The notes under the pieces are model-generated. The model worked only from the letters and a program-made list of their open reading frames with translations. It was not told the DNA's origin and searched no databases. 64,000 bases of DNA from Gemmatimonadota bacterium (GTDB lineage: Bacteria > Gemmatimonadota > Gemmatimonadetes > Palauibacterales > Palauibacteraceae). The DNA lies in NCBI GenBank assembly GCA_963666735.1, contig OY762926.1:2688001-2752000 (forward strand), in the 5' to 3' direction. Made by a program: the position numbers and the translations under genes. The first letter of the stretch is position 1. Every line of letters starts with the position of its first letter. Below, in pieces: positions 32,094-47,881 of the stretch.

Positions 32094-34118
32094 ATGCTGG
32101 AACATCTGCTCGAGACCGAGGTGGCGAAGCGCCCGCCGACCGTGCGCCTCAAGGGCCGGATCCTCTTTCTTACCGAAGATCCGGACCTCATCCGCCGCCA
32201 ACTCGCCGGGGAGGACCTCGACTGGGATCCGTCGATCCCTCTGCGCGACGACATCTCGACCGATGAGATCACGCCCGGCTGGGTCTGCTACCACTTCGAC
32301 GAGAAGTTGGGGGAATACCCGTATGTGGGCCTCCTGTGCAGCGACGAGCGTCCGATCGGCCGCAACGACATCCGGAAGGGCGGCTTCGTGTGTTCCGTGT
32401 CCGGGAAGAGGCGCGGGAAAGGGTCGAGTCGGGAGGCTTCGCCGTATGCCGAGCGCGCCGCGGGCCTGCGCGTCGTCATCGGAGAGAACATCGAGCGCAT
32501 CTACGGGGAGAATTGCGCGAACATCGGCCTCCTCGCATCGACGGACTTCTCCCTGATCGAGAAGATCCGGCGCGGGGAGGAAATCCCGCTCGACGCGTTC
32601 ATCGGAGACGCGGGGCGCATTCAGCGCGACATCATCGAATACGGCGGGTTGCTCGACTACGCCGTGGCGAGGCTGAAGGGACTCGTCGCGCTCCCGGACA
32701 TCGCGACCCCCGCGGACCGCCCGCAGACGATTGCGGAAAAGATCGTGGCGCGGCACTGGGTCACCGACGCGGCCTCCGGCAGGCTGGGCGTTCCGGCCGT
32801 GCAGCCGGGCGACACGGGCTTCCTCCGGGCCGATCTCCGCTTCTCCCACGAGTACGTGACCCCGATGGCGTCGACGTTCTGGGAGGATTTTGCGGGCGAT
32901 GCGGGACTGAATCACACCGAGTCCATCGTATTCTTCCGCGACCACCTCGCGTTCCTCGACGAGGTCATTACGGAGGAGAGGAAGGCGGCCGGCCTGCTCG
33001 ACGCGGCCCATGCCCTGCACGACCGCCAGCGTGAGTTCGCCGCCGCCAAGGGCGTGCGCCTGCACGGCGAACTGCCCGACCGCACGGGGAGCGAGGGGAT
33101 CTGCCATATCGTGGTGCAGGACCGCTACGCGCTCCCCGGCCAGGTCATCATCGGCAGCGATTCGCACACTCCGCATTCGGGTGCGCTCGGATGCGTGGCC
33201 TTCGGCGTGGGGACGTCCGCGATCGTCAACGCCTGGGCGACACGCGACGTTCGGCTGGAGGTGCCGGAATCGATCCGCGTGAACATCACGGGCCAGCCGC
33301 CGCCCGGAGTCGTGGCGAAAGATGTCATCCTCGAACTGCTGCGTCACCCGACCGTCAGGAGCGGCGAGGCGATCGGACGGATCATCGAGTTCACGGGGGA
33401 GGCCGTGGAGGCGCTGTCCATCGACGAAAGGGCGACGCTGACGAACATGGCGGCCGAGGTCGGGGGATTCACCGGCATCATCGCCCCGGATGCGAAGGCG
33501 GTGGCCTGGATCGCCGGGCGGCGGGGAGTGGCGGTCGAAGAGATCCGGGCGTTGTGCGATGGACTCTACAGCGACGCGGGGGCGGACTATGCGGCGACGA
33601 TCGAGATGGACGCGAACGGCATCGAACCGATGGTCGCGACCCCCGGCGATCCCGGGAACGGGGTGCCGGTCGCGGCGCTCCGCGGGGACGTGCGTGTGGA
33701 CACCGTGTTCGTCGGGGCCTGCACGGGGGCGAAGCGGGCGGACTTCGAGATGTACGGGACGGTAGCGCGCGAGGCGGTCGCGGCGGGGAAGCGCGTGCCC
33801 TCGGCCGTCCGCGCCTATGCCCAGTACGGTTCCATCGATGTCGAGGCGTGGAGCCGCGAGCAGGGCCACGACCGGGCCCTCAGGGATGCGGGATTCGACG
33901 TCCTCGCTCCCGGCTGCGGTGCCTGCATCAACGCCGGGCCCGGGGTGTCGACGGCGGCGGAGCAGGTCACGATCAGCTCGATCAATCGGAACTTCCCCGG
34001 CCGCAGCGGTCCGGGGCAGGTGTACCTGGCGAGTCCGCTGACGTGCGTGGCCTCGGCGATCGAGGGACGGATCGTGGCGTACGGCGAGCAGGCGTGGAAC
34101 CGCGAGTCGGCCGGCTAG
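32094..34118 (+). CDS. Aconitase-family hydro-lyase, swivel domain fused N-terminally (LeuD-LeuC-like fusion)
   Basis: DDISTDEI and GKGSSRE (swivel); GSDSHT, VGACTG, PGCGACI, NRNFPGR (large subunit). Confidence 0.88.
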   Translation: MLEHLLETEVAKRPPTVRLKGRILFLTEDPDLIRRQLAGEDLDWDPSIPLRDDISTDEITPGWVCYHFDEKLGEYPYVGLLCSDERPIGRNDIRKGGFVCSVSGKRRGKGSSREASPYAERAAGLRVVIGENIERIYGENCANIGLLASTDFSLIEKIRRGEEIPLDAFIGDAGRIQRDIIEYGGLLDYAVARLKGLVALPDIATPADRPQTIAEKIVARHWVTDAASGRLGVPAVQPGDTGFLRADLRFSHEYVTPMASTFWEDFAGDAGLNHTESIVFFRDHLAFLDEVITEERKAAGLLDAAHALHDRQREFAAAKGVRLHGELPDRTGSEGICHIVVQDRYALPGQVIIGSDSHTPHSGALGCVAFGVGTSAIVNAWATRDVRLEVPESIRVNITGQPPPGVVAKDVILELLRHPTVRSGEAIGRIIEFTGEAVEALSIDERATLTNMAAEVGGFTGIIAPDAKAVAWIAGRRGVAVEEIRALCDGLYSDAGADYAATIEMDANGIEPMVATPGDPGNGVPVAALRGDVRVDTVFVGACTGAKRADFEMYGTVAREAVAAGKRVPSAVRAYAQYGSIDVEAWSREQGHDRALRDAGFDVLAPGCGACINAGPGVSTAAEQVTISSINRNFPGRSGPGQVYLASPLTCVASAIEGRIVAYGEQAWNRESAG

Positions 34119-36838
34119 GCGGGTTCGACCCTCACGGGGCACACCTTCAGTTCCGCCGTGTGCGTGACCGGATCGTAGCCGCCTCCGGTGAGGAAGTTCA
34201 CCGGCACGTCGTTGAAGCTGAATGAGGCGAAGACGGTGCCGGGTGGGGATCGGTCGTTGGCCTCGACCTTGATCCGTACCTGGCCGCGCGGGCTCGACAT
34301 CGTCGCCCAGCCGCCGTCCACGAGACCCCACTTCGACACATCCGCCGGGTGCATCTCGAGGCGCTCCTCCGACAACAGGTACTCGATGCCGGCCGACCGC
34401 CCCGTCTGCGTCCTCGTGTGATAGGCCGGCAGCCGGCGCCCGGTCGTGAGCCAGATCGGATACTCGTCCGAGATCGTCTCGGCCGGATCCCGGTATCGGA
34501 TCAACTGGAAGATCCCGCGCCCGTTCTCGAACTCGCCTTCGTGAAGGATGGGAGTGCCGGGGTGACCGCGCTCCGGCACCGGCCAGTGGTACTCGCCGTG
34601 TTCGATGAGGTCCCAGTCCAGGCCGGCGTAGATCGGTGAGAGCGAGCAGAGTTCGTTGAACACCTGTTTTGCCGACTCGAACTCGAAGCCCTCCAGCCCC
34701 ATGCGCTGCGCGATCCGGGACACGCACCACCAGTCGGGTTTCGCCTCGCCCGGGGGATCCACCGCCTTCCGCAGGCGCTGGACGCGCCGCTCCGTGTTCG
34801 AACACACGCCGTCCGTCTCCGCCCAGGCAGTGGCCGGCAGCACGACATCGGCCAGTTGCGCCGTCTCGGTGGGGAAGATGTCGATCACGACGAGGTGGTC
34901 GAGGCTCCTGAGCGCGTGCTCGCAATGCTTCCGGTCGGGGTCGGTGACGACCGTGTTCTCGCCGTTGATGATCATGGCGCGGATCCGGTCGCCGCACATG
35001 TCGAGCGCCGTGACCTTGGTGGGCCCCAGTTCGAGGTCCGTCTCCCGGCCGTAGGCGGCGGCGAACTTCGCCTGAGACGCCGGGTCGAGCACATCCTGGA
35101 AACCGGGGTAGTTGTTCGGCAGCGCCCCGCAGTCTCCCGCGCCCTGGATGTTGTTCTGGCCGCGCATCGGATTGATCCCGGTTCCCTCGCGGCCGACGTT
35201 GCCCGTCATGAGGGCCAGATTGCAGAGGCTCTGCACGTTGTCCACGCCGCAGATGTGCTCCGTGATCCCGAGCGTGTAGTAGATCGCTCCGCGTTCGGCC
35301 TTCGCATACCAGCGCGCCGCCTCCGCGATCAACTTCGCGTCCACCCCGCTGATGGATTCGGCCCATTCCGGCGGGTACTCCAGGACGTGCTCCATGAAGT
35401 CGCGGCCTTCCGTCGTGCGGTCGGCCACGAAGCCCTCGTCCATCAGCCCCTCGCGCACGATCACGTGGGCCATGCCGAGCAGGAGCGCGACGTCCGACCC
35501 GACGCGGAGCGGCAGGTAGATGTCGGCCATCTCGGCCAGCGGAATCCGTCTCGGATCGGCGACGATGAGCTTGGCGCCCCGGGCCACCGCGCGCTTGATG
35601 CGGGTGGCCGCGACGGGGTGGCACTCGGTCATGTTGGTCCCGATGCAGAAGATCACATCGGGCTTTTCCATGTCCGCGAGCGGATTCGACATCGCGCCCC
35701 GTCCGATAGAGGCCGCCAGACCGGCGACCGTGGGGGCGTGTCAGGCACGGCTGCAGTTGTCGATCTGGTTCGTACCGAACGCGCCCCGGATGAACCGCTG
35801 CATCATGTAGGCCGCTTCGTGCGGCGCCCGTCCGGAGGCGACGCCGTACACGGAGTGTCTGCCGTGGTTCTCGACCGCCGCCGTGAACCCCGCCGCCGCG
35901 CGGTCGAGCGCCGTGTCCCAGTCGGTCTCGTGGAGTTCGCCGTCGTCGCCGCGCACCATCGGATAGGCAAGCCGGTCCGGGTGCTGCACGAAGTCGAACG
36001 CGAACTGCCCCTTGACGCAGAGCGCGCCCTCGTTGGCGGGCCCATCCATCGCCGGCTGGACGCCGATCAGCTTGTCATCCCGCGACATGAGGTCGACGGA
36101 ACAACCGACGCCGCAGTAGGGACAGACGGTCCGCGTCTTCTTCGTCTCACCCGGGACGGCGGCGTTCGCGAGCGCCTTGATGTCCGCGAGGGCCCCGGTC
36201 GGGCAGGTCTGCACGCACTGGCCGCAGAACGTGCAGGCGGAGTCCCCGAGCAGGCCTTCGAATTCCGTCGTGATCCGCGTCTCGAACCCGCGGTTCATGA
36301 TCGAGATCGCGTAGTCGCCCTCCTGCTCCGCGCAGACCCGCACGCAGCGATAGCAGGAGATGCAGTTGTCGTAGTCGCGAAGGATGAAGGGGTTGTCGTC
36401 GTCCGGCCGGCTGCGGCCGGAGGTGACCCCGGCGAAGCGGCCCGTCCGGGCCTCGTAGCGGTCGAGCAGCACCGCCATCTCCTGCGAGGCGTATCCGGAG
36501 AGCGGGTCGACGTCCGTGTCGCGGTTCTCGGAGGCGACCATCTCCATGAGCACCCGGCGGTGCATGTCGAGCCGCGCCGAGCGGGTCGTGATCCGCATCC
36601 CGGGCTCCGCGCGCATCGTGCAGGAGGCGACCGGATTGCGGGCGCCCTCGAGTTCCACGATGCAGAGGCGACAGGCGCCGAAGGCCTCCAGGCGCGGGTC
36701 GTAGCACAGCGTCGGGATCTCCTTGCGGTGCCGCTCGGAGACCTCGTACAGGCTCTCGCCGCGACGGACGCCGACCCTCTCGCCGTCGAGCGCGATCTCG
36801 AAATCGAAGCCCGTGCTGTTGCCGGAATTGTCGCTCAA
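34115..36838 (-). CDS. fdhF: Selenocysteine-containing formate dehydrogenase alpha subunit (in-frame UGA at 35741-35743)
   Basis: TTG start after GGAGGT; N-terminal Fe-S domains; CPYCGVGC; IDNCSRA-U-HAPTVAGL; RGQNNIQG; the two track ORFs are in the same frame across the TGA. Confidence 0.92.
35711..35729 (-). promoter_or_regulatory. Bacterial SECIS element
   Basis: GGTCGCC-GGTCT-GGCGGCC hairpin starting 11 nt after the UGA. Confidence 0.88.
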
Positions 36839-36954
36839 ACCCACCTCCGGAGGCGCGAGAACCCCGCACCGCTGGAAACTGCCGGGCCCACTAACATGAC
36901 GCGCCGCGGCCGCCGCGACAAATCCGGGCGGCGTCCAGGTCCGGCCTCGTGCGC

Positions 36955-38619
36955 CTAGGCGGACCCGGTGACGTGGCTCGACACGCGATCCGGGAAGTAG
37001 CGGATCAGGCTCTCCGTGATGAGGGGGGCCGCCTGCCCGAGGCCGCAGGCGCTCGTCTGCATCATCGTGTCGCCCAGATCGTGCATCTCGTCGATCCAGG
37101 CGCCGATGTCGGGCGGGCCATCGCCGTGCAGGCGCTCCGTCAGGCGCTGTGTGCCGATGCGGCAGGGGAAACACTTGCCGCAGGACTCCTCGGCGAAGAA
37201 CTCCATGGCGGAACGCGCCACCTCGATCATGTCCCGCGAGTCGTCGAAGACCATGATCCCGCCCGCACCCAGGAACGACCCCTTCGCGCGGATGCCGGGC
37301 TCGTCGAGCGTGACATCGAGATCATCCCCCGCCAGGAAGCCGCCCGAGAGCCCCGCCATCGTCACCGCCCGGATCCTGCGACCGCCCGGGACGCCGCCGG
37401 CCCAGTCGTCGATCAGGGTCAGCAGAGGGAAGCCCATGGGTACTTCGTAGTTGCCGGGGCGAGCGATGTCCCCGGAGAGCGAGATCACCTTCGTGCCCGC
37501 GTGGTCGCCGAGCCCGAGATCCCGATACCAGTCGGCGCCGTGTACGAGGATATGGGGGACGGAAGCCAGCGTCTCGACGTTGTTCACGACGGTGGGAAGG
37601 TCCTCGTACCCGTGCGTCACCGGAAACGGCGGCCGGTTCCGGGGGAACGGGTGCTTGCCCTCGAGGCTGTTGAGAAGAGACGTCTCCTCGCCGCAGATGT
37701 AGGCGCCCGCGCCGCGGCGTACCCAGAGGTCGAACGGTCGTCCGGGCCCGAAGGCCTCCGGTCCCAGCAGCCCGTCGCCGCGGGCTTCCTCCAGGGCCGT
37801 CTCCAGGATGCGGAACGTGTCCGGATACTCGTAGCGGAGGTAGATGAACCCGCGCGTGGCCCCCGTCGCGAAGCCGGCGGCGATCATCCCCTCGATCACC
37901 GCGTGCGGGTCGTAGTCCATCAGCGCCCGGTCCTTGAAACAGCCCGGCTCCCCTTCGTCCGCGTTGCAGACGATGGTTTTGGGCTCCCCCGCGGCCTCCG
38001 ACACGGCCCGCCACTTCCGCCCCGTCGGGAAGCCGGCGCCGCCCCGCCCCGCCAGGCCGCTCGCGTCGATGGCATCGAGAAGCGCTTCGGGCCGCCCGCG
38101 AAGGGCGTTCTCGAGCCCGGAATAGCCGCCCGTCGCCCGATAGCCCGCCAGCGTGGCGCGTCCCGGAGTCCGGATGTGCGCGAATACACATTCCTCGATG
38201 TCCGGGTGTGGAGCGGGCGGGAGCGGAGAGGGTCGGGAGTGGAGCGCCCCGACCGTCGTTCCACAGAGCACCCGGTCACGATCCAGGACGGGAATCGGCT
38301 CATCGCACCGGCCCGGGCACGGCATCGCCTTCGCCTTCGGCAGCCCGGACAGAAGTCCGTCCGCCCCCAGCAGGGCGCAGATGGGTCCCGTACATACACG
38401 CGCGCGAGCGTAGCCCTCCGGGTCTCGCGAAAAGTGATGATAGAAGGTCACCGTGCCGAACAGGTCCGCGATGGGAATCCGAAGATCATCGGAGACGGCC
38501 CGCAGCGCTGCCTCGGAGAGGAACCCGTCCCTCTCGTGGAACTCGTGCAGCAGGGGAAGCAGGGGCGCCGGCTCGTCCCGCCATCTCGCGAGGAGCTCTG
38601 CGTCCGAAGGCGTGTTCAT
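36955..38619 (-). CDS. Fused NuoE/NuoF-like diaphorase subunit of formate dehydrogenase
   Basis: TFYHHF, VCTGPIC, CPGRCD; GRGGAGFPTG, NADEGEPG, GAGAYICGEET, ESCGKCFPCR. Confidence 0.92.
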   Translation of the reverse strand: MNTPSDAELLARWRDEPAPLLPLLHEFHERDGFLSEAALRAVSDDLRIPIADLFGTVTFYHHFSRDPEGYARARVCTGPICALLGADGLLSGLPKAKAMPCPGRCDEPIPVLDRDRVLCGTTVGALHSRPSPLPPAPHPDIEECVFAHIRTPGRATLAGYRATGGYSGLENALRGRPEALLDAIDASGLAGRGGAGFPTGRKWRAVSEAAGEPKTIVCNADEGEPGCFKDRALMDYDPHAVIEGMIAAGFATGATRGFIYLRYEYPDTFRILETALEEARGDGLLGPEAFGPGRPFDLWVRRGAGAYICGEETSLLNSLEGKHPFPRNRPPFPVTHGYEDLPTVVNNVETLASVPHILVHGADWYRDLGLGDHAGTKVISLSGDIARPGNYEVPMGFPLLTLIDDWAGGVPGGRRIRAVTMAGLSGGFLAGDDLDVTLDEPGIRAKGSFLGAGGIMVFDDSRDMIEVARSAMEFFAEESCGKCFPCRIGTQRLTERLHGDGPPDIGAWIDEMHDLGDTMMQTSACGLGQAAPLITESLIRYFPDRVSSHVTGSA

Positions 38620-38744
38620 GCCGTCATAGTTACCCGACAAGCCCCAAGGCGGCAAACGACTTGAACCCGCGCGGCGTGACCATCCGGGGAACCCGGGGAA
38701 CCGTTGCGCCGACGCCGTCAGCGTCGACACCGTACCTTCGCCCT

Positions 38745-39578
38745 ATGATCACACCGCGCAGGAACACGGCCCGCGTCGAGATCGATCGCGTCTCCGAGGC
38801 ATCGCGCCGAAGAAGGCGGGATGCCGTGGCGGTCGAGGAGCCGCTCGAGATCCGGATCGCGACCGTTGAAGGCGAGGAACACCAGGTGGCCGTGACGATG
38901 CGCACGCCGGGGGACGATTTCGATCTCACGGCAGGGTTCCTCTTCTCGGAGGGGCTGCTGTCACACCGCTCGGATGTGGCCGACCTGCGATACTGCGTCG
39001 ATGTCGAGACGCAGGAATACAACATCATGACGGTGTACCTGAGCGAAGCGGCCCGCTTCGATCCGGCGGAGCTGACCCGGAACTTCTACGCCACCTCCAG
39101 TTGTGGCGTCTGCGGCAAGGCGTCTCTCGAGGCGATAGAGATCCGGGGTTGCGCCCCGATCCCGGCGGGAGCGACGGTATCCGCAGACGTCGTGCGATCG
39201 CTCCCGGACGCCCTGCGTCGCCGGCAGCCGGTGTTCGAGCGAACCGGGGGACTCCACGCGGCCGGCCTGTTCGACCCGACGGGCGAACTGCAACTCCTCC
39301 GTGAGGATGTCGGTCGCCACAACGCGCTCGACAAGGTGATCGGCGAGCGGTTCCTGGGCGGGGCACTCCCCCTGGGCGAGTCCGTGCTCGCGGTGAGCGG
39401 GCGCGCCTCGTTCGAGATCATGCAGAAGGCGCTCGCCGCCGGAATCCCTATCGTCGTCGCCGTCGGCGCGCCGTCCAGCCTCGCGGTGGATGTGGCGAAG
39501 GAGTTCGGGATGACGCTCATCGGTTTCGCGAAGCCGACGGGGTTCAACGTCTACACGGGCCGCCACCGCATCGACTGA
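38745..39578 (+). CDS. fdhD: Formate dehydrogenase accessory sulfurtransferase
   Basis: EEPL, TMRTPG, SSCGVCG, TGGLHAA, EDVGRHNALDK. Confidence 0.95.
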   Translation: MITPRRNTARVEIDRVSEASRRRRRDAVAVEEPLEIRIATVEGEEHQVAVTMRTPGDDFDLTAGFLFSEGLLSHRSDVADLRYCVDVETQEYNIMTVYLSEAARFDPAELTRNFYATSSCGVCGKASLEAIEIRGCAPIPAGATVSADVVRSLPDALRRRQPVFERTGGLHAAGLFDPTGELQLLREDVGRHNALDKVIGERFLGGALPLGESVLAVSGRASFEIMQKALAAGIPIVVAVGAPSSLAVDVAKEFGMTLIGFAKPTGFNVYTGRHRID

Positions 39579-41239: not shown

Positions 41240-42442
41240 ATGAAAAGCCGCGTCCAGCCGCCTCCGATCCTTGACAAGTGTCGTGAACTAGCGACCGTGA
41301 ACGGTCTCCGCGAGGCCGGCCTCTATCCGTACTTCATGCCCATAGAGGCCTCGCACGACACCTGGGTCGTCATCGACGGCGCGCGCAAGATCATGGTGGG
41401 CTCCAACAACTACATGGGGCTCACGCACGATCCGCGCGTCCTCGAGGCGGCCCGTGACGCCCTCAACAAGTTCGGAAGCGGCAACACGGGCAGCCGGTTC
41501 CTCAACGGCAACCTCAATCTGCATGAGCAACTCGAGGCCGAACTCGCCGACTTCACCTGCATGGAGGCCGCGCTCGTATTCTCCACCGGCTACCAGACGA
41601 ATCTGGGTACGCTGGGCGCGTTGATCGGCCGCGCGGACACGGTCTACATCGACAAGCTGGACCATGCCAGCCTCCAGGACGGTGCACGCATGGGGCTCGG
41701 CCGCACCCGGCGCTTCAATCACAACGACTTCGCGACCCTGCGGCGCATGCTCGAGGCCGAGACGCCCTCGCGCGGCAAGCTCATCGCGGTGGACGGCGTG
41801 TACAGCATGGAAGGCGACATCGCCGATCTGCCCACCCTGGTCGAACTGAGGCGGGAGTACGGCGCGGCCATCCTGGTGGATGACGCGCACGCCGTGGGGG
41901 TGCTGGGCGAGACCGGGGCCGGGACCGCCGAGCACTGGGGACTCACCGGCCAGGTGGACCTGATCCTCGGCACCTTCTCCAAGTCCTTCGCCTCGATCGG
42001 TGGCTTCGTGGCGGGTCGCGCAGACGTCATCGACTACCTCCAGCACAACGCCCGCGCCCTCATGTTCAGCGCGAGCATGCCTCCCGCCTCCGCCGCCACC
42101 GTGCTGAAGGCGCTGGAGATCATCCGCGATGAGCCGGAGCGCCGGGAGCAGCTCTGGAAGAACACCTACAGGATGATGGAGGGCTTCAAGTCGATCGGGT
42201 TCGATATCGGGCCGACCGAGACCCCGATCATCCCCATCCTCATCGGACCCATGGAGAAGACCTTCGTGTTCTGGCGCGCGCTGTTCGAAGCCGGCGTCTT
42301 CACGAACCCGGTGGTTCCGCCCGCGGTTCCGGAAGGGAGTTGTCGCCTGCGGACGAGCTACATGGCGACGCACTCGGATGACGACCTCGATTTCGTGCTC
42401 GACCAGGTAGAGCGCGTGGGGAAGAAGCTCGGCGTCGTCTGA
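41240..42442 (+). CDS. spt: Serine palmitoyltransferase (alpha-oxoamine synthase family)
   Basis: SNNYMGL, GSRFLNG, DHAS, DDAH, PLP-lysine motif GTFSKS; neighbouring GNAT and SDR genes. Confidence 0.82.
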   Translation: MKSRVQPPPILDKCRELATVNGLREAGLYPYFMPIEASHDTWVVIDGARKIMVGSNNYMGLTHDPRVLEAARDALNKFGSGNTGSRFLNGNLNLHEQLEAELADFTCMEAALVFSTGYQTNLGTLGALIGRADTVYIDKLDHASLQDGARMGLGRTRRFNHNDFATLRRMLEAETPSRGKLIAVDGVYSMEGDIADLPTLVELRREYGAAILVDDAHAVGVLGETGAGTAEHWGLTGQVDLILGTFSKSFASIGGFVAGRADVIDYLQHNARALMFSASMPPASAATVLKALEIIRDEPERREQLWKNTYRMMEGFKSIGFDIGPTETPIIPILIGPMEKTFVFWRALFEAGVFTNPVVPPAVPEGSCRLRTSYMATHSDDDLDFVLDQVERVGKKLGVV

Positions 42443-42458
42443 ACCGGCGCCTCCCCCC

Positions 42459-43589
42459 ATGACGAGCCTCGCCTCCTCCGTGCGCGTCGTCCCCGTCGAA
42501 AGCCGCGCCGACCTCAAGCGCTTCATCGACCTGCCGTGGTCGATCTATCGGGGCGATCCCGACTGGGTGCCCCCGCTGAAGAGAGATGTACGGGCGGCCT
42601 TCGATCCCGCGAAACACCCGTTCCACCTGCACTCGGAGGTCCAGCCCTACCTCGCAGTGCGCGACGGCCGGGCAGTGGGCCGAATCTGCGCGATCCGGAA
42701 CCGGAATCATGAACGGATACACGACGAAGCCGTAGGGTTCTTCGGCTGGTTCGAGTGCATCGACGACCCGGAAGTGGCCGTGGCGCTGCTCGACGTGGTT
42801 CGGGTTTGGCTCCGCGCGCGCGGCCTCACCGCGATGCGCGGCCCCACGAGCTTCTCGACCAACGAGACCTGTGGCCTGCTCATCGACGGAGATCCCGGGC
42901 CGCCGGTCGTCCTGATGGCCTACAACCCGCCGTACTATCCGGGGCTGATGGAGGCTGCCGGACTGCGGAAGGTCAAGGATCTCTTCGCCTGGCTCATGAA
43001 GAAGGGCGATTGGCCGCCGCACCTGTTCCGCGCCGAGAAGGTCGTGACGCGCAGGTACGGCATCCGGATCAAGACGCTGGACATGTCGCGATTCGACGAA
43101 GAACTCGGCCGCGTCCAGCGCCTGTACAACGCGGCCTGGGAGAAGAACTGGGGTTTCGTCCCCATGACCGAGGCCGAGATGGATCACATGGCGGCGGAAC
43201 TCAAGCCCATACTCGACCCCGAACTCGCGCTCTTCGCGGAGACGCCGGAGGGCGAAACCGCCGGCTTCGCGCTCGCCCTCCCGGACTTCAACCAGGTGCT
43301 GCGCCGGATGAACGGCAGGCTCTTCCCCTTCGGAATCCTGAAGGCGCTCATCTACCGGCGCAGAATCACGTGCATGCGCGTCATCATCCTGGGGCTCGCC
43401 GAGGAATGGCGCGGCAAGGCCGTCGATGTCCTCCTCTACCTGTGGCTGTTCAGGAAGGGAATCGCCGCCGGAATGACGTCCGCCGAGCAGTCGTGGATCC
43501 TCGAGGACAACCAGAAGATGAACCAGGCCATCGAGCGGCTCGGCGGCAGGGTCTACCGCACCTACCGGCTGTACGAAGCGGCCCTGTAG
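42459..43589 (+). CDS. Tandem-GNAT N-acyltransferase, putative bacterial ceramide synthase (bCerS-like)
   Basis: WVPPL, GFFGWFE, RGPTSFSTN...GLL, YNPPYY, NWGFVP, SWILEDN; directly after spt. Confidence 0.78.
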   Translation: MTSLASSVRVVPVESRADLKRFIDLPWSIYRGDPDWVPPLKRDVRAAFDPAKHPFHLHSEVQPYLAVRDGRAVGRICAIRNRNHERIHDEAVGFFGWFECIDDPEVAVALLDVVRVWLRARGLTAMRGPTSFSTNETCGLLIDGDPGPPVVLMAYNPPYYPGLMEAAGLRKVKDLFAWLMKKGDWPPHLFRAEKVVTRRYGIRIKTLDMSRFDEELGRVQRLYNAAWEKNWGFVPMTEAEMDHMAAELKPILDPELALFAETPEGETAGFALALPDFNQVLRRMNGRLFPFGILKALIYRRRITCMRVIILGLAEEWRGKAVDVLLYLWLFRKGIAAGMTSAEQSWILEDNQKMNQAIERLGGRVYRTYRLYEAAL

Positions 43590-44542
43590 TGGGATCGGTC
43601 TTCCTGACGGGGGGGAGCGGGTTCCTCGGCAGCCATCTCGCCGCCGCACTCGTCGCCGCCGGACATCAGGTCACCGCGAGCGTGCGGCGAACGAGCGACA
43701 CGCGTCGTCTCGATCGCCTCGAACTGACGAAGGTCGAACTCGATCTCGGGCTGAGGGACGACGCGGCAGCGGCAGCGGCACTCGCGGATTGCGCCGCCAT
43801 CGTGCACTGCGGGGCGCTCACGCGGGCGCGCAACGCGTCGGAGTTCATGGCCGTGAACGCGGTCGGCACCCTGAGGCTCGCCAGGGCGGCGGCGGATGCG
43901 GGAGTCCCGCGGTTCGTGTTCATCAGCAGCCTCGCCGCCCGGGGCCCGGACGGAGCGGACGGACCCGTGAGCCCGTACGGCCGGTCGAAAGCCGAGGCCG
44001 AGGCCGCGCTCGCGTCCATCCGCGGGCCGATGAAGGTGACCGTGCTCCGGCCGGGGGGCGTGTACGGCCCGCGCGACTCCGACCTGCTGCCGCTCTTTCG
44101 GCTGGCGGCGCGGGGGTGGACCGCGATTCCGCGCAGCCGCGCGCCGCTGCAGCCGGTATATGTCGCCGATGTCGTCTCGGCCGTCCTGGCCGCCCTCGAG
44201 GCGGCGCCGTCTCCGTCTCCGCTTCCCATCGCCGCGGCGGAACGGCATTCCTGGCGCGCGCTGGCGGGAGCGCTGATGGCTGCCGTGAACCGCACCGGTC
44301 GCGTCCTGCGGCTACCGTCCGCCCTCTTTCTCACCGCGGGGGCGCTGTCGGAACTCGCGGGCCGCCTGACGGGAACCGCCCCCGCCTTCGACCGGAGACG
44401 GGCGCGGGATCTGTCCGCGTACGCCTGGACCTGCGACATCGAGGCGAGCCGAAGACATCTCGACTCGTGGCATCCGCGGGTCGGCATCGAAGAGGGGCTC
44501 GCGCGCACCGCCGAGTCGTATCGCCGCATGGGCTGGCTGTGA
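43589..44542 (+). CDS. NAD-dependent epimerase/dehydratase-family SDR, putative ceramide reductase (CerR-like)
   Basis: TGGSGFLG, ISSLAA, YGRSK, RPGGVYGP; start overlaps the GNAT stop. Confidence 0.78.
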   Translation: MGSVFLTGGSGFLGSHLAAALVAAGHQVTASVRRTSDTRRLDRLELTKVELDLGLRDDAAAAAALADCAAIVHCGALTRARNASEFMAVNAVGTLRLARAAADAGVPRFVFISSLAARGPDGADGPVSPYGRSKAEAEAALASIRGPMKVTVLRPGGVYGPRDSDLLPLFRLAARGWTAIPRSRAPLQPVYVADVVSAVLAALEAAPSPSPLPIAAAERHSWRALAGALMAAVNRTGRVLRLPSALFLTAGALSELAGRLTGTAPAFDRRRARDLSAYAWTCDIEASRRHLDSWHPRVGIEEGLARTAESYRRMGWL

Positions 44543-45426
44543 GCGACGGCGGCAGCGGACGACTCCTGCCCGTCGATCGCCTTGCCATCGGCTACTTCGG
44601 TGGCACGGGCCTCGTTTCCCTCGCGTTCGGCGGCCTGCCCGGGGCGGGAATCGCAGCGGCCCACGCGATCGCCATCTTCGGGATCACGCGACTTGCGGCC
44701 TGGCGCCCCCGCGCAGGCCTCGCAGTCATCGCGCGGGCGGCGTACGCCGTGTGCCTCACACCCCTGCTGTATGCGGAGCTCGCCGTCATCAACCGCTTCT
44801 TCACGCAACGGTACTTCGACGCCACGGTGCAGGCGTGGGACGCCGCCGTGTTCGGCGGACAGCCCAGCATCGGCCTCAGCGCGCTGTTCCCCTGGCTCTC
44901 CTTCTCCGAGGTGTTGCACCTGGGCTACTTCGCCTACTACGCCATCATCCCCGCCGCCATCCTGGGCGTGTTCGCGACACGCGGCGCCGAGGCCCTGCAG
45001 CGCACCGCCCTCGCCGTGGCCGCCGCCTTCTTCGTCTCCTATCTCATCTTCATGTTCTTCCCGGTCGCCGGCCCCCGGTACGAGTTTGCCCAGATCGGCG
45101 GCGGGATCGGCGAGGGCACGCTGTTCGGGATCGTGCACGGGATCCTGGAGGCCGGCTCGTCGAAGGGCACGGCCTTCCCCAGCTCCCACATCGCCGCCTC
45201 CCTGGCGGCGGTCGTGAGCGCCGGACGCGAGGATCGGCGCTGGTTCTGGCTCCTCATCATCCCGGAACTCGCGTTGACCGCCGGGACGGTGTACGGTCGC
45301 TTCCATTACGCGACCGACGCCCTCGCGGGCATCCTGCTCGGACTGCTGGTCTGCGCCGTACTGCATGCGTCCGGATCCGGGGCCGGGGGCGCCCGGGAAG
45401 CCGAGGGCGGGCAACCCGCGGCCTGA
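44539..45426 (+). CDS. PAP2-superfamily membrane phosphotransferase/phosphatase (AUR1/IPC-synthase-like)
   Basis: FPVAGPRY, AFPSSH, GRFHYATD; multiple TMs; GTGA overlap with the SDR gene. Confidence 0.8.
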   Translation: MSDGGSGRLLPVDRLAIGYFGGTGLVSLAFGGLPGAGIAAAHAIAIFGITRLAAWRPRAGLAVIARAAYAVCLTPLLYAELAVINRFFTQRYFDATVQAWDAAVFGGQPSIGLSALFPWLSFSEVLHLGYFAYYAIIPAAILGVFATRGAEALQRTALAVAAAFFVSYLIFMFFPVAGPRYEFAQIGGGIGEGTLFGIVHGILEAGSSKGTAFPSSHIAASLAAVVSAGREDRRWFWLLIIPELALTAGTVYGRFHYATDALAGILLGLLVCAVLHASGSGAGGAREAEGGQPAA

Positions 45427-45475: not shown

Positions 45476-46033
45476 GTGGACGAACGCGACCTGATCGCCT
45501 GCGCCAAAGCGGGAGAGCGATCCGCGATGGGGGAGTTGTACGAACTCCACGCGCGGCGCGTCTACACCGTGATCCGCCGCCTCGTGGGCGACGATCACCT
45601 CGCAGAGGATCTGTCCCAGGAAGCCTGGATCCGTGCGTTCGAGAAGCTCCACCTTTTTCGCGGGGACGCGGCCTTCGGCACGTGGCTCTACCGGTTGGCG
45701 ACGAACGTGGCGCTCAACCGGCTTCGCAGGTCGTCGAAGCGACGGCCCGTGGAGTCCGCCGCCGAGCTTCCCCGCGTGACGCGGGCGCACGACGACGTGA
45801 TCGTGACCCGGCGGGTCCTGACCAAGGCGCTGGACCAGCTGCCGCCGGGGTACCGGAAGGTCCTCGTGCTGCACGACGTGGAAGGCTGGACGCACAACGA
45901 CATCGCCGAGTTTCTGGGTTGTTCGCCCGGCACGTCGAAGTCGCAGTTGCACAAGGCGCGGGCGCGCATGCGGAAGCTCATCGCTCCGGAAGATTCCGGG
46001 AACGGCGGTGCGCGGGGCGAAGCGCGCCTGTGA
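45476..46033 (+). CDS. ECF sigma-70 factor
   Basis: AEDLSQEAW, FGTWLYRLATN, LVLHDVEG, GTSKSQLHKAR. Confidence 0.93.
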   Translation: MDERDLIACAKAGERSAMGELYELHARRVYTVIRRLVGDDHLAEDLSQEAWIRAFEKLHLFRGDAAFGTWLYRLATNVALNRLRRSSKRRPVESAAELPRVTRAHDDVIVTRRVLTKALDQLPPGYRKVLVLHDVEGWTHNDIAEFLGCSPGTSKSQLHKARARMRKLIAPEDSGNGGARGEARL

Positions 46034-46067
46034 GAGGGATGGAAGAGGGATAGAAGGGATAGAAGAA

Positions 46068-46763
46068 ATGGCGAACCACATGGATGCCGAGCGAATCTCG
46101 GCACTGCTCGACGAGCCGTGGGCCGACCAGGACTGCCGGGCCCACCTCGATGCGTGCGGGGATTGCCACGCGGAGTTCGAGAGATTGAGCCGGCTGCGCA
46201 TGGCGTTGTCCGCACTCCCGGATGAGAAGGCGCCGAGCGGGCAGTGGGCCGGGATCGAGGCCGCGCTCGATGCGGGTGAGACGCGGGCCGGCACCGGCTG
46301 GATCGGCCGAGGCGTCGCCGGCCGTCTCTTCGTCCCGGGACCGCTCCAGGCCGCCGCCGCCCTCGTGTTGTTTGCCGGCGGCGTGATCGCCGGCCTGCAG
46401 TTCACCGGCGGCGGCGTCGCGAACTCGCCGGATCCGGCCTCGGATCCTCCAGCCGTCGTTTCCACCGATGATGGTCGCACCCTCGTGGACGGTCTCAGCC
46501 GGATGGAATCGCTGCGGTCGCCGCTCAGACAGGTGGGAGAGGGGGGGACGGGTCCCGCGTCGGAAGGCGGGTTGGGGGAGAGAGATCCCCTGGCGGCGGC
46601 ACAGAGATTGGCGAGGCTGGAGGGATCGATCCGGGCACTGCGGGACCGCCTCGAGACGAATCCCGACGATCTGCTCGCCAGCGCCTACTTGCTGGAATTC
46701 GTGGAGACGCGCGATCGACTCGCGGAGGAACTCGGCCGCGCAAGCGGGACGCGGACCTGGTGA
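46068..46763 (+). CDS. Putative zinc-binding membrane anti-sigma factor
   Basis: H...HLDACGDC (HxxxCxxC), one TM, follows the sigma factor. Confidence 0.8.
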   Translation: MANHMDAERISALLDEPWADQDCRAHLDACGDCHAEFERLSRLRMALSALPDEKAPSGQWAGIEAALDAGETRAGTGWIGRGVAGRLFVPGPLQAAAALVLFAGGVIAGLQFTGGGVANSPDPASDPPAVVSTDDGRTLVDGLSRMESLRSPLRQVGEGGTGPASEGGLGERDPLAAAQRLARLEGSIRALRDRLETNPDDLLASAYLLEFVETRDRLAEELGRASGTRTW

Positions 46764-47881
46764 CCATGCCTCTCTCGCGGTCCCCGCGCCCGCTCGCCGC
46801 GGCTCTCGCCGCGGGCGTCCTGTCGCTCACGCCCCTTTCCGGTGCGGCACAGGAGACCCCGGCGGCCGCCGCTCCCGGCTGGATCGGGGTGCGGGTCGAC
46901 GAGCGCTACAACTGCGGCTGGGAGACACCGGAAGATTGGAAGAACTGCACGCTCGTCGTCCAGGTTCGTGAGATTCAGGAAGACGGGCCGGCGGCGCGTG
47001 CGGGGCTCCTCGTCGGCGACCGACTGGCGGCGATGAACGGCGTGGGCATCTCCCTCGCCAACCTTTCCGAGCTGCTTGCATCGATCCGCCCGAGCGTCCC
47101 GGTACGATTGCAGGTCACACGAGACGGGGCTGACCGCACGCTGGAAGTCATTCCCGACACCCGGCCCCCGGATGCGGACGACGTACCGATGGAGGGCCGT
47201 CGGACGATCGTGACCACGACCGGGAACCGGCGGCGCGGCACGTTCGTCTTGTGGCTGACGGCCTCCGCCGGGCGCGACTCCACCGAGCGCGGCCGCGCCG
47301 GCGTCGCCCTCGCCTTCCGCGATACGGATGACACCGGCGTCGCCGTCGAGCCCTCCGCCGTGCGGGTCGTGGACGGCCGACTCAACGTGCTGCCCGTTCG
47401 CGACCGACCGGTCTCGGAGTTGCCGGCGGTCCGTGTGGAAATACTCCGTGATCTGCAGCGCGAGTCGGAATCGGCCTACCGGGACTTCACGCTGGCGCTC
47501 CAGCACGTCGGGGCTGTGCGGGCGCGCCTCTCGGCGACGGAGTTCCGGCGCCGCGTGGCGCGTGCCGCTCAGGTGGCGCGGCCGGAGCCCGGTCTCGCCG
47601 CCCGCCTCCACCGTACGTTCGCGGGGGCCGAGTTCGAGCCCGTGCGCAACTTTTCCGACCGTGTCGGTATGGATGGTCTCCTCGTGCTCAGGGTCGCGCG
47701 GGGGACGGTCACCGCCCGGCTCGGGATCAGGCCGGGAGATCTCCTCGTGAGAGCCGCCGACCGTCCGACACGGGACCTGGAGGAACTCGTCACCGCGCTC
47801 GATTCGGAACCCGGATCGGGCCCGAGCGTGGTGTGGGTCCGGGGAGGTCGCGAGATGAGCGCAGTCTGGCCCCGACGCTGA
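46760..47881 (+). CDS. Secreted double-PDZ-domain protein
   Basis: Signal peptide; GWIGV...GPAARAGLLVGD; ARLGIRPGDLLV; no protease domain seen. Confidence 0.75.
   Translation: MTMPLSRSPRPLAAALAAGVLSLTPLSGAAQETPAAAAPGWIGVRVDERYNCGWETPEDWKNCTLVVQVREIQEDGPAARAGLLVGDRLAAMNGVGISLANLSELLASIRPSVPVRLQVTRDGADRTLEVIPDTRPPDADDVPMEGRRTIVTTTGNRRRGTFVLWLTASAGRDSTERGRAGVALAFRDTDDTGVAVEPSAVRVVDGRLNVLPVRDRPVSELPAVRVEILRDLQRESESAYRDFTLALQHVGAVRARLSATEFRRRVARAAQVARPEPGLAARLHRTFAGAEFEPVRNFSDRVGMDGLLVLRVARGTVTARLGIRPGDLLVRAADRPTRDLEELVTALDSEPGSGPSVVWVRGGREMSAVWPRR

What the first reader, a model, noticed from the sequence alone, without database searches (positions are those of the whole stretch)
41240..45426. 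Complete four-gene sphingolipid (ceramide) biosynthesis-type operon
Seen: four tightly coupled plus-strand genes (16-bp gap, then 1-nt and 4-nt overlaps). They encode an alpha-oxoamine synthase with the GTFSKS PLP motif, a tandem-GNAT protein, an SDR with YGRSK, and a membrane PAP2 protein. Established: bacterial ceramide synthesis, defined in Caulobacter crescentus, uses Spt, a GNAT-type bCerS and an SDR-type CerR. GTFSKS is typical of bacterial SPT, whereas BioF and Kbl usually have GKA. Inference: this organism (probably Gemmatimonadota, a group not known to me as a characterised sphingolipid producer) makes ceramide from a single compact operon. No dedicated ACP or acyl-ligase gene is in the cluster.
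Basis: partly seen in the sequence, partly recalled or inferred. Interest (0 to 1): 0.85.

Follow-up and report, generated by a model that had tools for sequence, protein, structure and literature searches.

The report
Ceramide operon with Aur1-like head-group enzyme
Four tightly packed genes in an uncultured Gemmatimonadota bacterium match the known bacterial route to the membrane lipid ceramide, and the fourth, predicted to fold like the yeast enzyme Aur1, likely adds a phosphate-linked head group (most likely inositol), so the pathway is known and only the host lineage and this untested fourth enzyme are new.

Summary
Confirmed: four coupled + strand genes at 41240-45426 in a Ca. Palauibacter genome (Gemmatimonadota). 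Gene 1 is a serine palmitoyltransferase homologue (best solved match Sphingobacterium SPT; tree groups it with E. coli B Spt, apart from BioF and Kbl; the genome's Kbl lies elsewhere). Genes 2 and 3 are the genome's best matches to the E. coli B bCerS-type and CerR-type proteins (34% and 31%). Gene 4 is probably not a plain phosphatase: its model matches yeast Aur1 best (Z 19), keeps the His-His-Asp triad and lacks the phosphatase arginine, but fails the cut-off for the Bacteroides BT_1522 family. The genome encodes inositol-phosphate and PIP synthases elsewhere. All four genes are colinear in 39 of 79 related loci; in 201 phylum genomes all 114 with a strong gene-4 match also have gene 2. Best reading: ceramide plus an Aur1-type head-group transfer, likely phosphoinositol. 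No activity or lipid was measured. The three-enzyme pathway is published and predicted in about 40 phyla, and this scan noted the same block on other DNA before. New variant of a known kind.

The parts
41240..42442 (+). spt: PLP-dependent alpha-oxoamine synthase, serine palmitoyltransferase homologue of the Bacteroidota/Sphingobacterium type (400 aa; PLP lysine K248 in GTFSKS)
   Evidence: NCBIfam SerpalmtaseCFB 519 bits (cut-off 640) against BioF 388 and Kbl 369; PDB best 8guh/3a2b 435 bits against Kbl 251 and cysteate acyltransferase 236; tree; 17 of 18 listed Sphingobacterium active-site residues identical
42459..43589 (+). bcerS-like: tandem-GNAT N-acyltransferase (376 aa)
   Evidence: 34% over 378 columns, E 4e-74, to E. 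coli BL21(DE3) YghO, its only hit in the genome; tandem-GNAT fold
43589..44542 (+). cerR-like: extended SDR of the NDUFA9-like kind (317 aa; TGGSGFLG, YGRSK)
   Evidence: 31% over 311 columns, E 3e-35, to the E. coli BL21(DE3) epimerase-like gene beside acp-spt, best of its 4 hits in the genome; best PDB match 9g83_P, then NDUFA9 chains among others
44539..45426 (+). Aur1-fold membrane phosphotransferase candidate, Pfam PAP2_3 (295 aa)
   Evidence: PF14378 E 6.5e-12; model pLDDT 92.7; Foldseek best Aur1, E 1.6e-4, TM 0.61; VIA-align Z 19.0, rmsd 4.8, 269 aligned against LpxE Z 15.5, rmsd 2.8, 162 aligned
45187..45318 (+). codons of the predicted catalytic triad of gene 4: H217 (FPSSH), H256 and D260 (HYxxD)
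   Evidence: invariant in 64 of 64 rows, His-to-His spacing 39 in 64 of 64; aligned to Aur1 H255/H294/D298

Best explanation
The four coupled genes likely form one operon that builds a phosphosphingolipid, most likely inositol phosphoceramide. Inferred steps: (1) Spt condenses L-serine with a long-chain acyl thioester (probably acyl-CoA, as no dedicated ACP or acyl-ACP ligase was found) to 3-ketosphinganine; (2) the tandem GNAT N-acylates it; (3) the SDR reduces the 3-keto group to give dihydroceramide (order of 2 and 3 is disputed in Caulobacter); (4) the Aur1-fold membrane enzyme takes the phospho-head group from a glycerophospholipid onto H256, releases diacylglycerol and passes the group to the ceramide 1-OH. 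The likely donor is phosphatidylinositol, made by a PIP synthase and inositol-phosphate synthase pair encoded elsewhere in the genome. Shown: gene structure, homologies, conservation, motifs. Predicted: folds. Inferred: every activity. My odds by step: ceramide backbone about 0.88, gene 4 a ceramide head-group transferase about 0.7, inositol as the head group about 0.5.
For: Spt identity; the second oxoamine synthase of the genome is the Kbl (46% to E. coli Kbl, 4 kb from tdh) and no BioB or BioD was found. bCerS- and CerR-type homology to the E. coli B cluster named aca/yghO and epi in PMC9386255. Synteny: of 79 loci fetched by gene 2, 63 hold an Spt match, 60 an SDR match, 47 a gene-4 match; 46 hold all four and 39 in this order; rearranged four-gene sets occur in Desulfarculaceae, Solibacteraceae and Myxococcota records. 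Gene 4: Aur1 is the top structural match by two aligners and covers nearly the whole chain; the profile aligns colinearly to Aur1 over positions 73-286, to PgpB and LpxE only at the C-terminal motifs; 0 of 64 family members have R-x5-H-x3-D and 1 of 64 has K-x6-RP, while PgpB shows the arginine. In 201 phylum genomes, 114 of 114 with a strong gene-4 match also have gene 2 and 66 have neither. Donor: MIPS directly behind a PIP-synthase-family gene; no phosphatidylserine decarboxylase found. One Bacteroidetes locus (L045) has MIPS directly behind GNAT-spt-SDR. Precedent: BT_1522 deletion removes inositol phosphoceramide in Bacteroides (PMC9246714, PMC8791184).
Against: No enzyme or lipid data. 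Gene 1 is below the curated cut-off of all three NCBIfam SPT models, and many of the 17 shared residues are general PLP-site residues. The comparators for genes 2 and 3 are the E. coli B homologues, whose roles PMC9386255 words as 'might'; the validated Caulobacter sequences were not obtained. Gene 4 scores only 13.9 bits (cut-off 480) on the BT_1522 family model; by sequence profile PgpB (E 7.8e-5) outranks Aur1 (E 0.068); identity to Aur1 is 14-18% and rmsd 4.8-6.9 A; the triad is common to phosphatases and transferases (PMC13133130). MIPS and PIP synthase are near-universal in the phylum (190 and 194 of 201), also in genomes without the operon (78 and 81 of 87), so their presence does not single out inositol, and they are not linked to the operon here. 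PgsA-like genes are present, so phosphatidylglycerol is an available donor too. Gene 2 and gene 4 co-occur partly because they are linked and the genomes are kin; 21 genomes have gene 2 without a strong gene-4 match.
Confidence: 0.5

Rival explanations
1. Same ceramide backbone and same Aur1-type transfer, but the head group is not inositol; phosphoglycerol from phosphatidylglycerol is the most available alternative.
For: Two PgsA-like genes in the genome; gene 4 is far from the BT_1522 family; inositol genes do not track the operon; related sphingolipid synthases differ in donor (PMC13133130).
Against: The closest solved fold is the strictly PI-specific Aur1, well above SMSr (Z 19.0 against 11.3); PI pathway genes are present in 113 (PIP synthase) and 112 (MIPS) of the 114 genomes with gene 4.
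Confidence: 0.2
2. Genes 1-3 make ceramide, and gene 4 is a lipid phosphatase or phosphodiesterase (for ceramide phosphate, PIP or PGP), as its automatic name says.
For: Best profile hits in the PDB by E-value are PgpB and LpxE; no PgpA was found in the genome, so PIP and PGP need some phosphatase; database names read 'phosphatase PAP2 family'.
Against: The phosphate-binding arginine before HxxxD is absent in 64 of 64 and the K-x6-RP pattern in 63 of 64; a separate canonical PAP2 gene exists (48.9 bits, C1:3507918); 81 of 87 genomes without a strong gene-4 match still have PIP synthase, so gene 4 is not the housekeeping PIP phosphatase; the N-terminal helices match Aur1, not the phosphatases.
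Confidence: 0.15
3. The cluster makes a sphingolipid analogue from another amino acid (alanine or glycine to 1-deoxy bases, or cysteate to a sulfonolipid).
For: Sphingobacterium SPT accepts alanine and glycine weakly (PMC10196870 abstract); Ala79 next to the serine site is Thr83 here; 1-deoxy and sulfono ceramides are abundant in marine samples (PMC11334938).
Against: Cysteate acyltransferase 28eh scores 236 bits against 435 for SPT, and such enzymes form a separate branch (PMC13692747); a 1-deoxy base has no 1-OH for the linked Aur1-like enzyme.
Confidence: 0.08
4. Gene 1 is a housekeeping BioF or Kbl and the neighbours serve unrelated envelope functions.
For: E. coli BioF's best hit in this genome is gene 1 (222 bits against 187); gene 1 is under the SPT cut-offs.
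Against: Tree clade with E. coli B Spt excludes BioF and Kbl (98/92); a separate Kbl lies near tdh; no BioB or BioD found; four-gene linkage across phyla.
Confidence: 0.02

Closest known systems
Bacterial ceramide pathway Spt / bCerS / CerR of Caulobacter crescentus and its E. coli BL21(DE3) counterpart (aasR, epi, acpR, spt, yghO; PMC9386255, PMC11087976)
   Same: All three enzyme types present; full-length homology to YghO (34%), the epi/CerR-type SDR (31%) and Spt (39%); genes clustered.
   Different: No AcpR or AasR counterpart (AcpR no hit at E 1e-4; AasR best hits 24-26% generic ligases); no LptF/LptG paralogues beside it; the Spt is of the Bacteroidota type; head-group gene is Aur1-like and inside the block; one colinear run with short gaps or overlaps.
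Sphingobacterium multivorum serine palmitoyltransferase (PDB 3A2B, 8GUH; PMC10196870)
   Same: Best solved match, gap-free alignment over 385 residues; 17 of 18 listed active-site residues identical.
   Different: Ala79 is Thr83; below the NCBIfam CFB cut-off (519 of 640).
Saccharomyces cerevisiae IPC synthase Aur1 (PDB 9IVC, 9VJ4; PMC13133130)
   Same: Top structural match; H-H-D triad with the same 39-residue His spacing; FPxxxPxY, AFPSxH and TxYxxxHYxxD blocks align.
   Different: 14-18% identity; Aur1's auxiliary H293 is Phe here; shorter (295 aa); Aur1 works with Kei1, and no partner was looked for here; donor untested.
Bacteroides thetaiotaomicron BT_1522-1526 inositol lipid cluster (PMC9246714, PMC8791184)
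   Same: A bacterial Aur1-like enzyme with MIPS and a PIP synthase makes inositol phosphoceramide there; the same gene kinds are in this genome.
   Different: There the transferase is clustered with the inositol genes; here it is clustered with the ceramide genes, and the inositol pair lies about 1.76 Mb away on the contig. Gene 4 is not in the BT_1522 equivalog (13.9 of 480 bits); no PgpA (BT_1525 type) found.

Membership tests
Bacterial serine palmitoyltransferase (Spt) | Closer to validated SPTs than to BioF, Kbl, HemA or cysteate acyltransferase | tested here: met
   (tree holds only one validated Spt, one BioF and one Kbl, all long branches)
Bacterial serine palmitoyltransferase (Spt) | PLP and serine-site residues of Sphingobacterium SPT conserved | tested here: met
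   17 of 18 identical; not all are SPT-specific
NCBIfam SPT equivalogs (CFB, Beta, Alpha) | Score over the curated cut-off | tested here: not met
   519/640, 408/500, 329/670; the Myxococcaceae and Poribacteria homologues fall short in the same way (514, 535)
Bacterial serine palmitoyltransferase (Spt) | Forms 3-ketosphinganine from serine and an acyl thioester | not testable with these tools
   needs assay
bCerS (YghO-like) | Full-length homology to a bCerS-type protein and tandem GNAT fold | tested here: met
   34%, E 4e-74 to E. coli B YghO; fold; Caulobacter sequence itself not compared
bCerS (YghO-like) | N-acylates the long-chain base | not testable with these tools
   needs assay
CerR | NDUFA9-like extended SDR, homologous to the epi gene of a known cluster, linked to spt | tested here: met
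   SDRs are a large family, so the linkage carries much of the weight
CerR | Periplasmic location as in Caulobacter (PMC11087976) | not testable with these tools
   the frame starts directly at the Rossmann strand with no leader; no localisation test run
Aur1-type phosphotransferase | Aur1-like fold over the whole chain with H-H-D triad | tested here: met
   (predicted model)
BT_1522 phosphoinositol dihydroceramide synthase (NF052609) | Score over the curated cut-off | tested here: not met
   13.9 bits of 480; 26 of 64 family members match weakly at E up to 1, best E 4.3e-4
IPC synthase (functional class) | Transfers phosphoinositol from PI to ceramide | not testable with these tools
   donor pathway genes present; activity needs assay
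Canonical PAP2 lipid phosphatase | K-x6-RP and R-x5-H-x3-D phosphate-binding motifs (motif definitions recalled; the arginine is visible in PgpB) | tested here: not met
   1 of 64 and 0 of 64
Rhodobacterial five-gene cluster | Dedicated AcpR and AasR | tested here: not met
   none in the block; no close match to the E. coli B proteins in the genome (genome 94% complete); three PP-binding hits lie elsewhere

The most novel reading that the evidence does not exclude
A majority of sampled Gemmatimonadota genomes make inositol phosphoceramide, the signature sphingolipid of fungi and plants, with a stand-alone Aur1-fold enzyme family that is separate from Bacteroides BT_1522 and travels with the ceramide genes into Myxococcota, Desulfobacterota and Acidobacteriota; it would be a second bacterial IPC synthase family and a candidate for the unassigned enzyme behind myxobacterial ceramide phosphoinositols (those lipids are recalled, not from a call).
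Probability: 0.4. Interest if true: 0.62.

Novelty: new variant of a known kind. Interest (0 to 1): 0.4.

Why it matters
It predicts phosphosphingolipids in a phylum for which my searches found no sphingolipid paper, and it puts an uncharacterised Aur1-fold enzyme family next to a known substrate, which makes its function testable with one plasmid. If the product is inositol phosphoceramide, environmental and host-associated lipids now read as fungal or plant markers would have a further bacterial source, and a small bacterial Aur1 relative would help explain head-group choice in an antifungal target family. The three-enzyme core is not surprising: it is published, often clustered, and predicted in about 40 phyla.

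Tried and rejected
Expression: contigs of two RNA runs (X1, X2; shares 0.10 and 0.08, mostly 85-95% alike, so from relatives) cover parts of the four genes but cover the flanking genes as well; contigs cannot show transcription, strand or level, so this is no evidence. Promoter and terminator scan: 0 promoter-like sites and 4 terminator-like sites against 2.7 expected; operon ends not defined. Inositol genes as a co-occurrence test: uninformative because near-universal. PDB sequence searches with single proteins: nothing for gene 2, one chance hit for gene 4. Pfam and NCBIfam give no family for gene 2. ESM Atlas returned only PAP2_3 clusters and held no model. The original pathway paper (Stankeviciute et al. 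2022) is not held under either DOI tried, and the supplement of PMC11334938 could not be read, so I could not check whether Gemmatimonadota are among its 9 or 38-40 phyla. Caulobacter and Bacteroides reference sequences were not obtained; E. coli BL21(DE3) homologues stood in. The downstream ECF sigma, anti-sigma and PDZ genes follow in 22, 22 and 20 of 79 loci, all Gemmatimonadota records close to the query in the Spt tree where included, so I do not count them as part of the system. No complex prediction was run; no binding is claimed.
Full report
Observation. The four frames, their joins and their motifs are as described: 41240-42442, 42459-43589, 43589-44542, 44539-45426, all on +, with a 16-bp gap, a 1-nt and a 4-nt overlap. 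The window is G000:C1:2688001-2752000 (94% complete). The nearest named relatives of gene 2 are Ca. Palauibacter records at 94-99% identity, so the host is a Gemmatimonadota of that genus. That Palauibacter are sponge associates is recalled.

Gene 1. NCBIfam ranks the Bacteroidota SPT model first (519 bits; cut-off 640), ahead of BioF (388), Kbl (369) and HemA (267). In the PDB the best match is Sphingobacterium multivorum SPT (435 bits, gap-free over 385 residues), against 295 for a Sphingomonas-type SPT, 251 for Kbl and 236 for a cysteate acyltransferase. Of 18 active-site residues named in PMC10196870 (passages), 17 are identical; Ala79 is Thr83. In a 38-row IQ-TREE tree the query falls in a 32-row clade with E. 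coli B Spt (98/92) that excludes E. coli BioF and Kbl; the reference branches are long and only one validated Spt is in it. The genome has one other alpha-oxoamine synthase, 46% identical to E. coli Kbl and about 4 kb from a tdh match. BioB and BioD gave no hit. Against this: E. coli BioF's best hit in the genome is gene 1, and no SPT cut-off is reached.

Genes 2 and 3. I fetched the E. coli BL21(DE3) cluster, whose yghO and epimerase-like gene PMC9386255 names as the homologues of the Caulobacter N-acyltransferase and reductase (passages). Gene 2 is 34% identical to YghO over its whole length (E 4e-74) and is YghO's only hit in the genome; gene 3 is 31% identical to the reductase homologue (E 3e-35) and the best of its 4 hits. 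The gene 2 model is a tandem GNAT. Gene 3's PDB matches include NDUFA9 chains, and CerR is described as NDUFA9-like (PMC11087976, parts 1-2 of 4 read). AcpR gave no hit and AasR only 24-26% matches to generic ligases, so the acyl donor is probably acyl-CoA or housekeeping acyl-ACP (inference).

Gene 4. It belongs to Pfam PAP2_3. A 64-row alignment (50 database proteins of the 120 listed, counting the query, plus 14 locus frames) has H217, H256 and D260 invariant. Yeast Aur1 uses H255, H294 and D298 in a two-step phosphohistidine transfer from PI to ceramide (PMC13133130, passages). The His spacing is 39 in 64 of 64 rows, as in Aur1; 0 of 64 have the arginine pattern R-x5-H-x3-D and 1 of 64 has K-x6-RP. 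The model (pLDDT 92.7) matches Aur1 first by Foldseek (E 1.6e-4, TM 0.61; the only two hits under 0.001 are Aur1) and by VIA-align (Z 19.0, rmsd 4.8, 269 aligned; LpxE Z 15.5, rmsd 2.8, 162 aligned; SMSr Z 11.3). The sequence profile tells less: PgpB scores better (E 7.8e-5) but only over the last 75 positions, while Aur1 aligns over positions 73-286 at E 0.068. The BT_1522 family model gives 13.9 bits against a cut-off of 480. So gene 4 likely works like Aur1 and BT_1522 but is not a member of the BT_1522 family.

Donor. The genome has MIPS directly downstream of a CDP-alcohol phosphotransferase whose best models are archaeal, Bacteroides and actinobacterial inositol-phosphate lipid synthases (148, 136, 119 bits, all under cut-off; PgsA 29) and whose best PDB matches are PIP synthases (locus). 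The other two CDP-alcohol transferases are PgsA-like. No phosphatidylserine decarboxylase and no PgpA were found; a canonical PAP2 gene lies elsewhere; PLD-family genes exist and were not classified. LpxC is present, so the lipid would accompany, not replace, lipid A (inference).

Distribution. Of 79 loci fetched with gene 2 (the best 80 of 506 confirmed stretches), 63 hold an Spt match, 60 an SDR match and 47 a gene-4 match; 46 hold all four at a stricter cut and 39 are colinear; several loci end at a contig edge. Rearranged sets occur in Desulfarculaceae, Solibacteraceae and Myxococcota records. In 201 Gemmatimonadota genomes gene 2 is found in 135 and the gene-4 profile in 119. Dropping five weak matches (E above 1e-15) leaves 114, all of which have gene 2; 21 have gene 2 only and 66 neither. 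Distribution is patchy by family: 96 of 97 in f3, 10 of 11 in the own family, 5 of 38 in f4, 9 of 24 in f6. One genome of the same genus (G150, 94% complete) shows neither gene 2, gene 4 nor the Spt. These genomes are kin and the genes are linked, so no statistical test is claimed; only 11 candidates per genome were scored. PIP synthase (194 of 201) and MIPS (190 of 201) are near-universal (tallies include the unpublished G155), which means the donor is available but does not point to inositol.

Mechanism. Serine plus acyl thioester to 3-ketosphinganine, N-acylation, reduction, then head-group transfer with release of diacylglycerol. Each step is inferred from homology, fold and linkage. Odds: ceramide backbone 0.88; gene 4 a ceramide head-group transferase 0.7; inositol 0.5.

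Known and new. The three-enzyme pathway is established in Caulobacter (PMC11087976, PMC9386255; the 2022 Nature Chemical Biology paper was not held, and is known to me by recall and by citation in those papers). PMC11334938 (abstract and passages) says the genes are often clustered and extends predicted producers from 9 to 40 phyla; its main text does not name Gemmatimonadota and its supplement could not be read, so prior listing is possible. A bacterial Aur1-like IPC synthase is known in Bacteroides (PMC9246714 and PMC8791184, passages). PMC13692747 (part 1 of 5) places cysteate enzymes on a separate branch. Searches for Gemmatimonad or Palauibacter with sphingolipid terms returned no relevant paper; a search joining myxobacteria with Aur1 or IPC synthase listed none among the 15 shown. 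The library lacks most subscription journals. Earlier notes of this scan describe the same block in other genomes with the same Aur1 reading; I had written that reading down before looking, and they are not independent support.

Verdict. Real, well conserved and mostly expected: a new variant of a known kind. What is new is the host lineage and an untested Aur1-fold family coupled to the ceramide genes. Interest 0.4.

Noticed in passing
L152:7241-12828 (G077:C1) and L153 (G122:C1): In another Gemmatimonadota genus (g32, family f6) that lacks the gene-4 family, a divergent GTFSKS oxoamine synthase sits among an acyltransferase, a Tam41-like cytidylyltransferase (weak), a CDP-alcohol phosphotransferase and a DAGK/YegS-like kinase, while the bCerS-like gene (73% to gene 2) lies 40-50 kb away among unrelated genes. 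This may be a different head-group route (kinase plus CDP-alcohol transfer); its synthase does not rank SPT above BioF/Kbl models.
   Followed up: partly
L045:300-5032: A Bacteroidetes record has GNAT, spt (over the NCBIfam cut-off), SDR and MIPS in a row: ceramide and inositol genes directly linked.
   Followed up: partly
L035:1538-7119 (also L039, L044): Ca. Poribacteria records carry spt and the bCerS-like gene; in L035 they follow MlaE, ABC ATPase and MlaD genes, a possible lipid transport link.
   Followed up: no
L050:573-7840: In a cultured Myxococcaceae genome spt (518 aa, with a C-terminal extension) and the GNAT are flanked by an MMPL transporter, a gene-4 relative and MlaC; other myxobacterial Spt frames are similarly long.
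   Followed up: no
genome C1:965310-967330 (L112, L115), outside the window: PIP synthase-like and MIPS genes are adjacent here and found in 194 and 190 of 201 Gemmatimonadota genomes, suggesting inositol phospholipids across the phylum.
   Followed up: partly
window 45476-47881 +: ECF sigma factor, anti-sigma-like gene and double-PDZ protein follow 49 bp after the operon on the same strand; conserved there in 20-22 of 79 loci.
   Followed up: partly
window 34115-39578: Formate dehydrogenase-like genes on the - strand (a split large subunit and a NuoEF-like fusion, by inspection of translations) opposite fdhD.
   Followed up: no
genome C1:240048-245868 (L126, L127): An ACP domain inside a 3808-aa open frame and a small free ACP close by, probably a polyketide synthase locus.
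   Followed up: no
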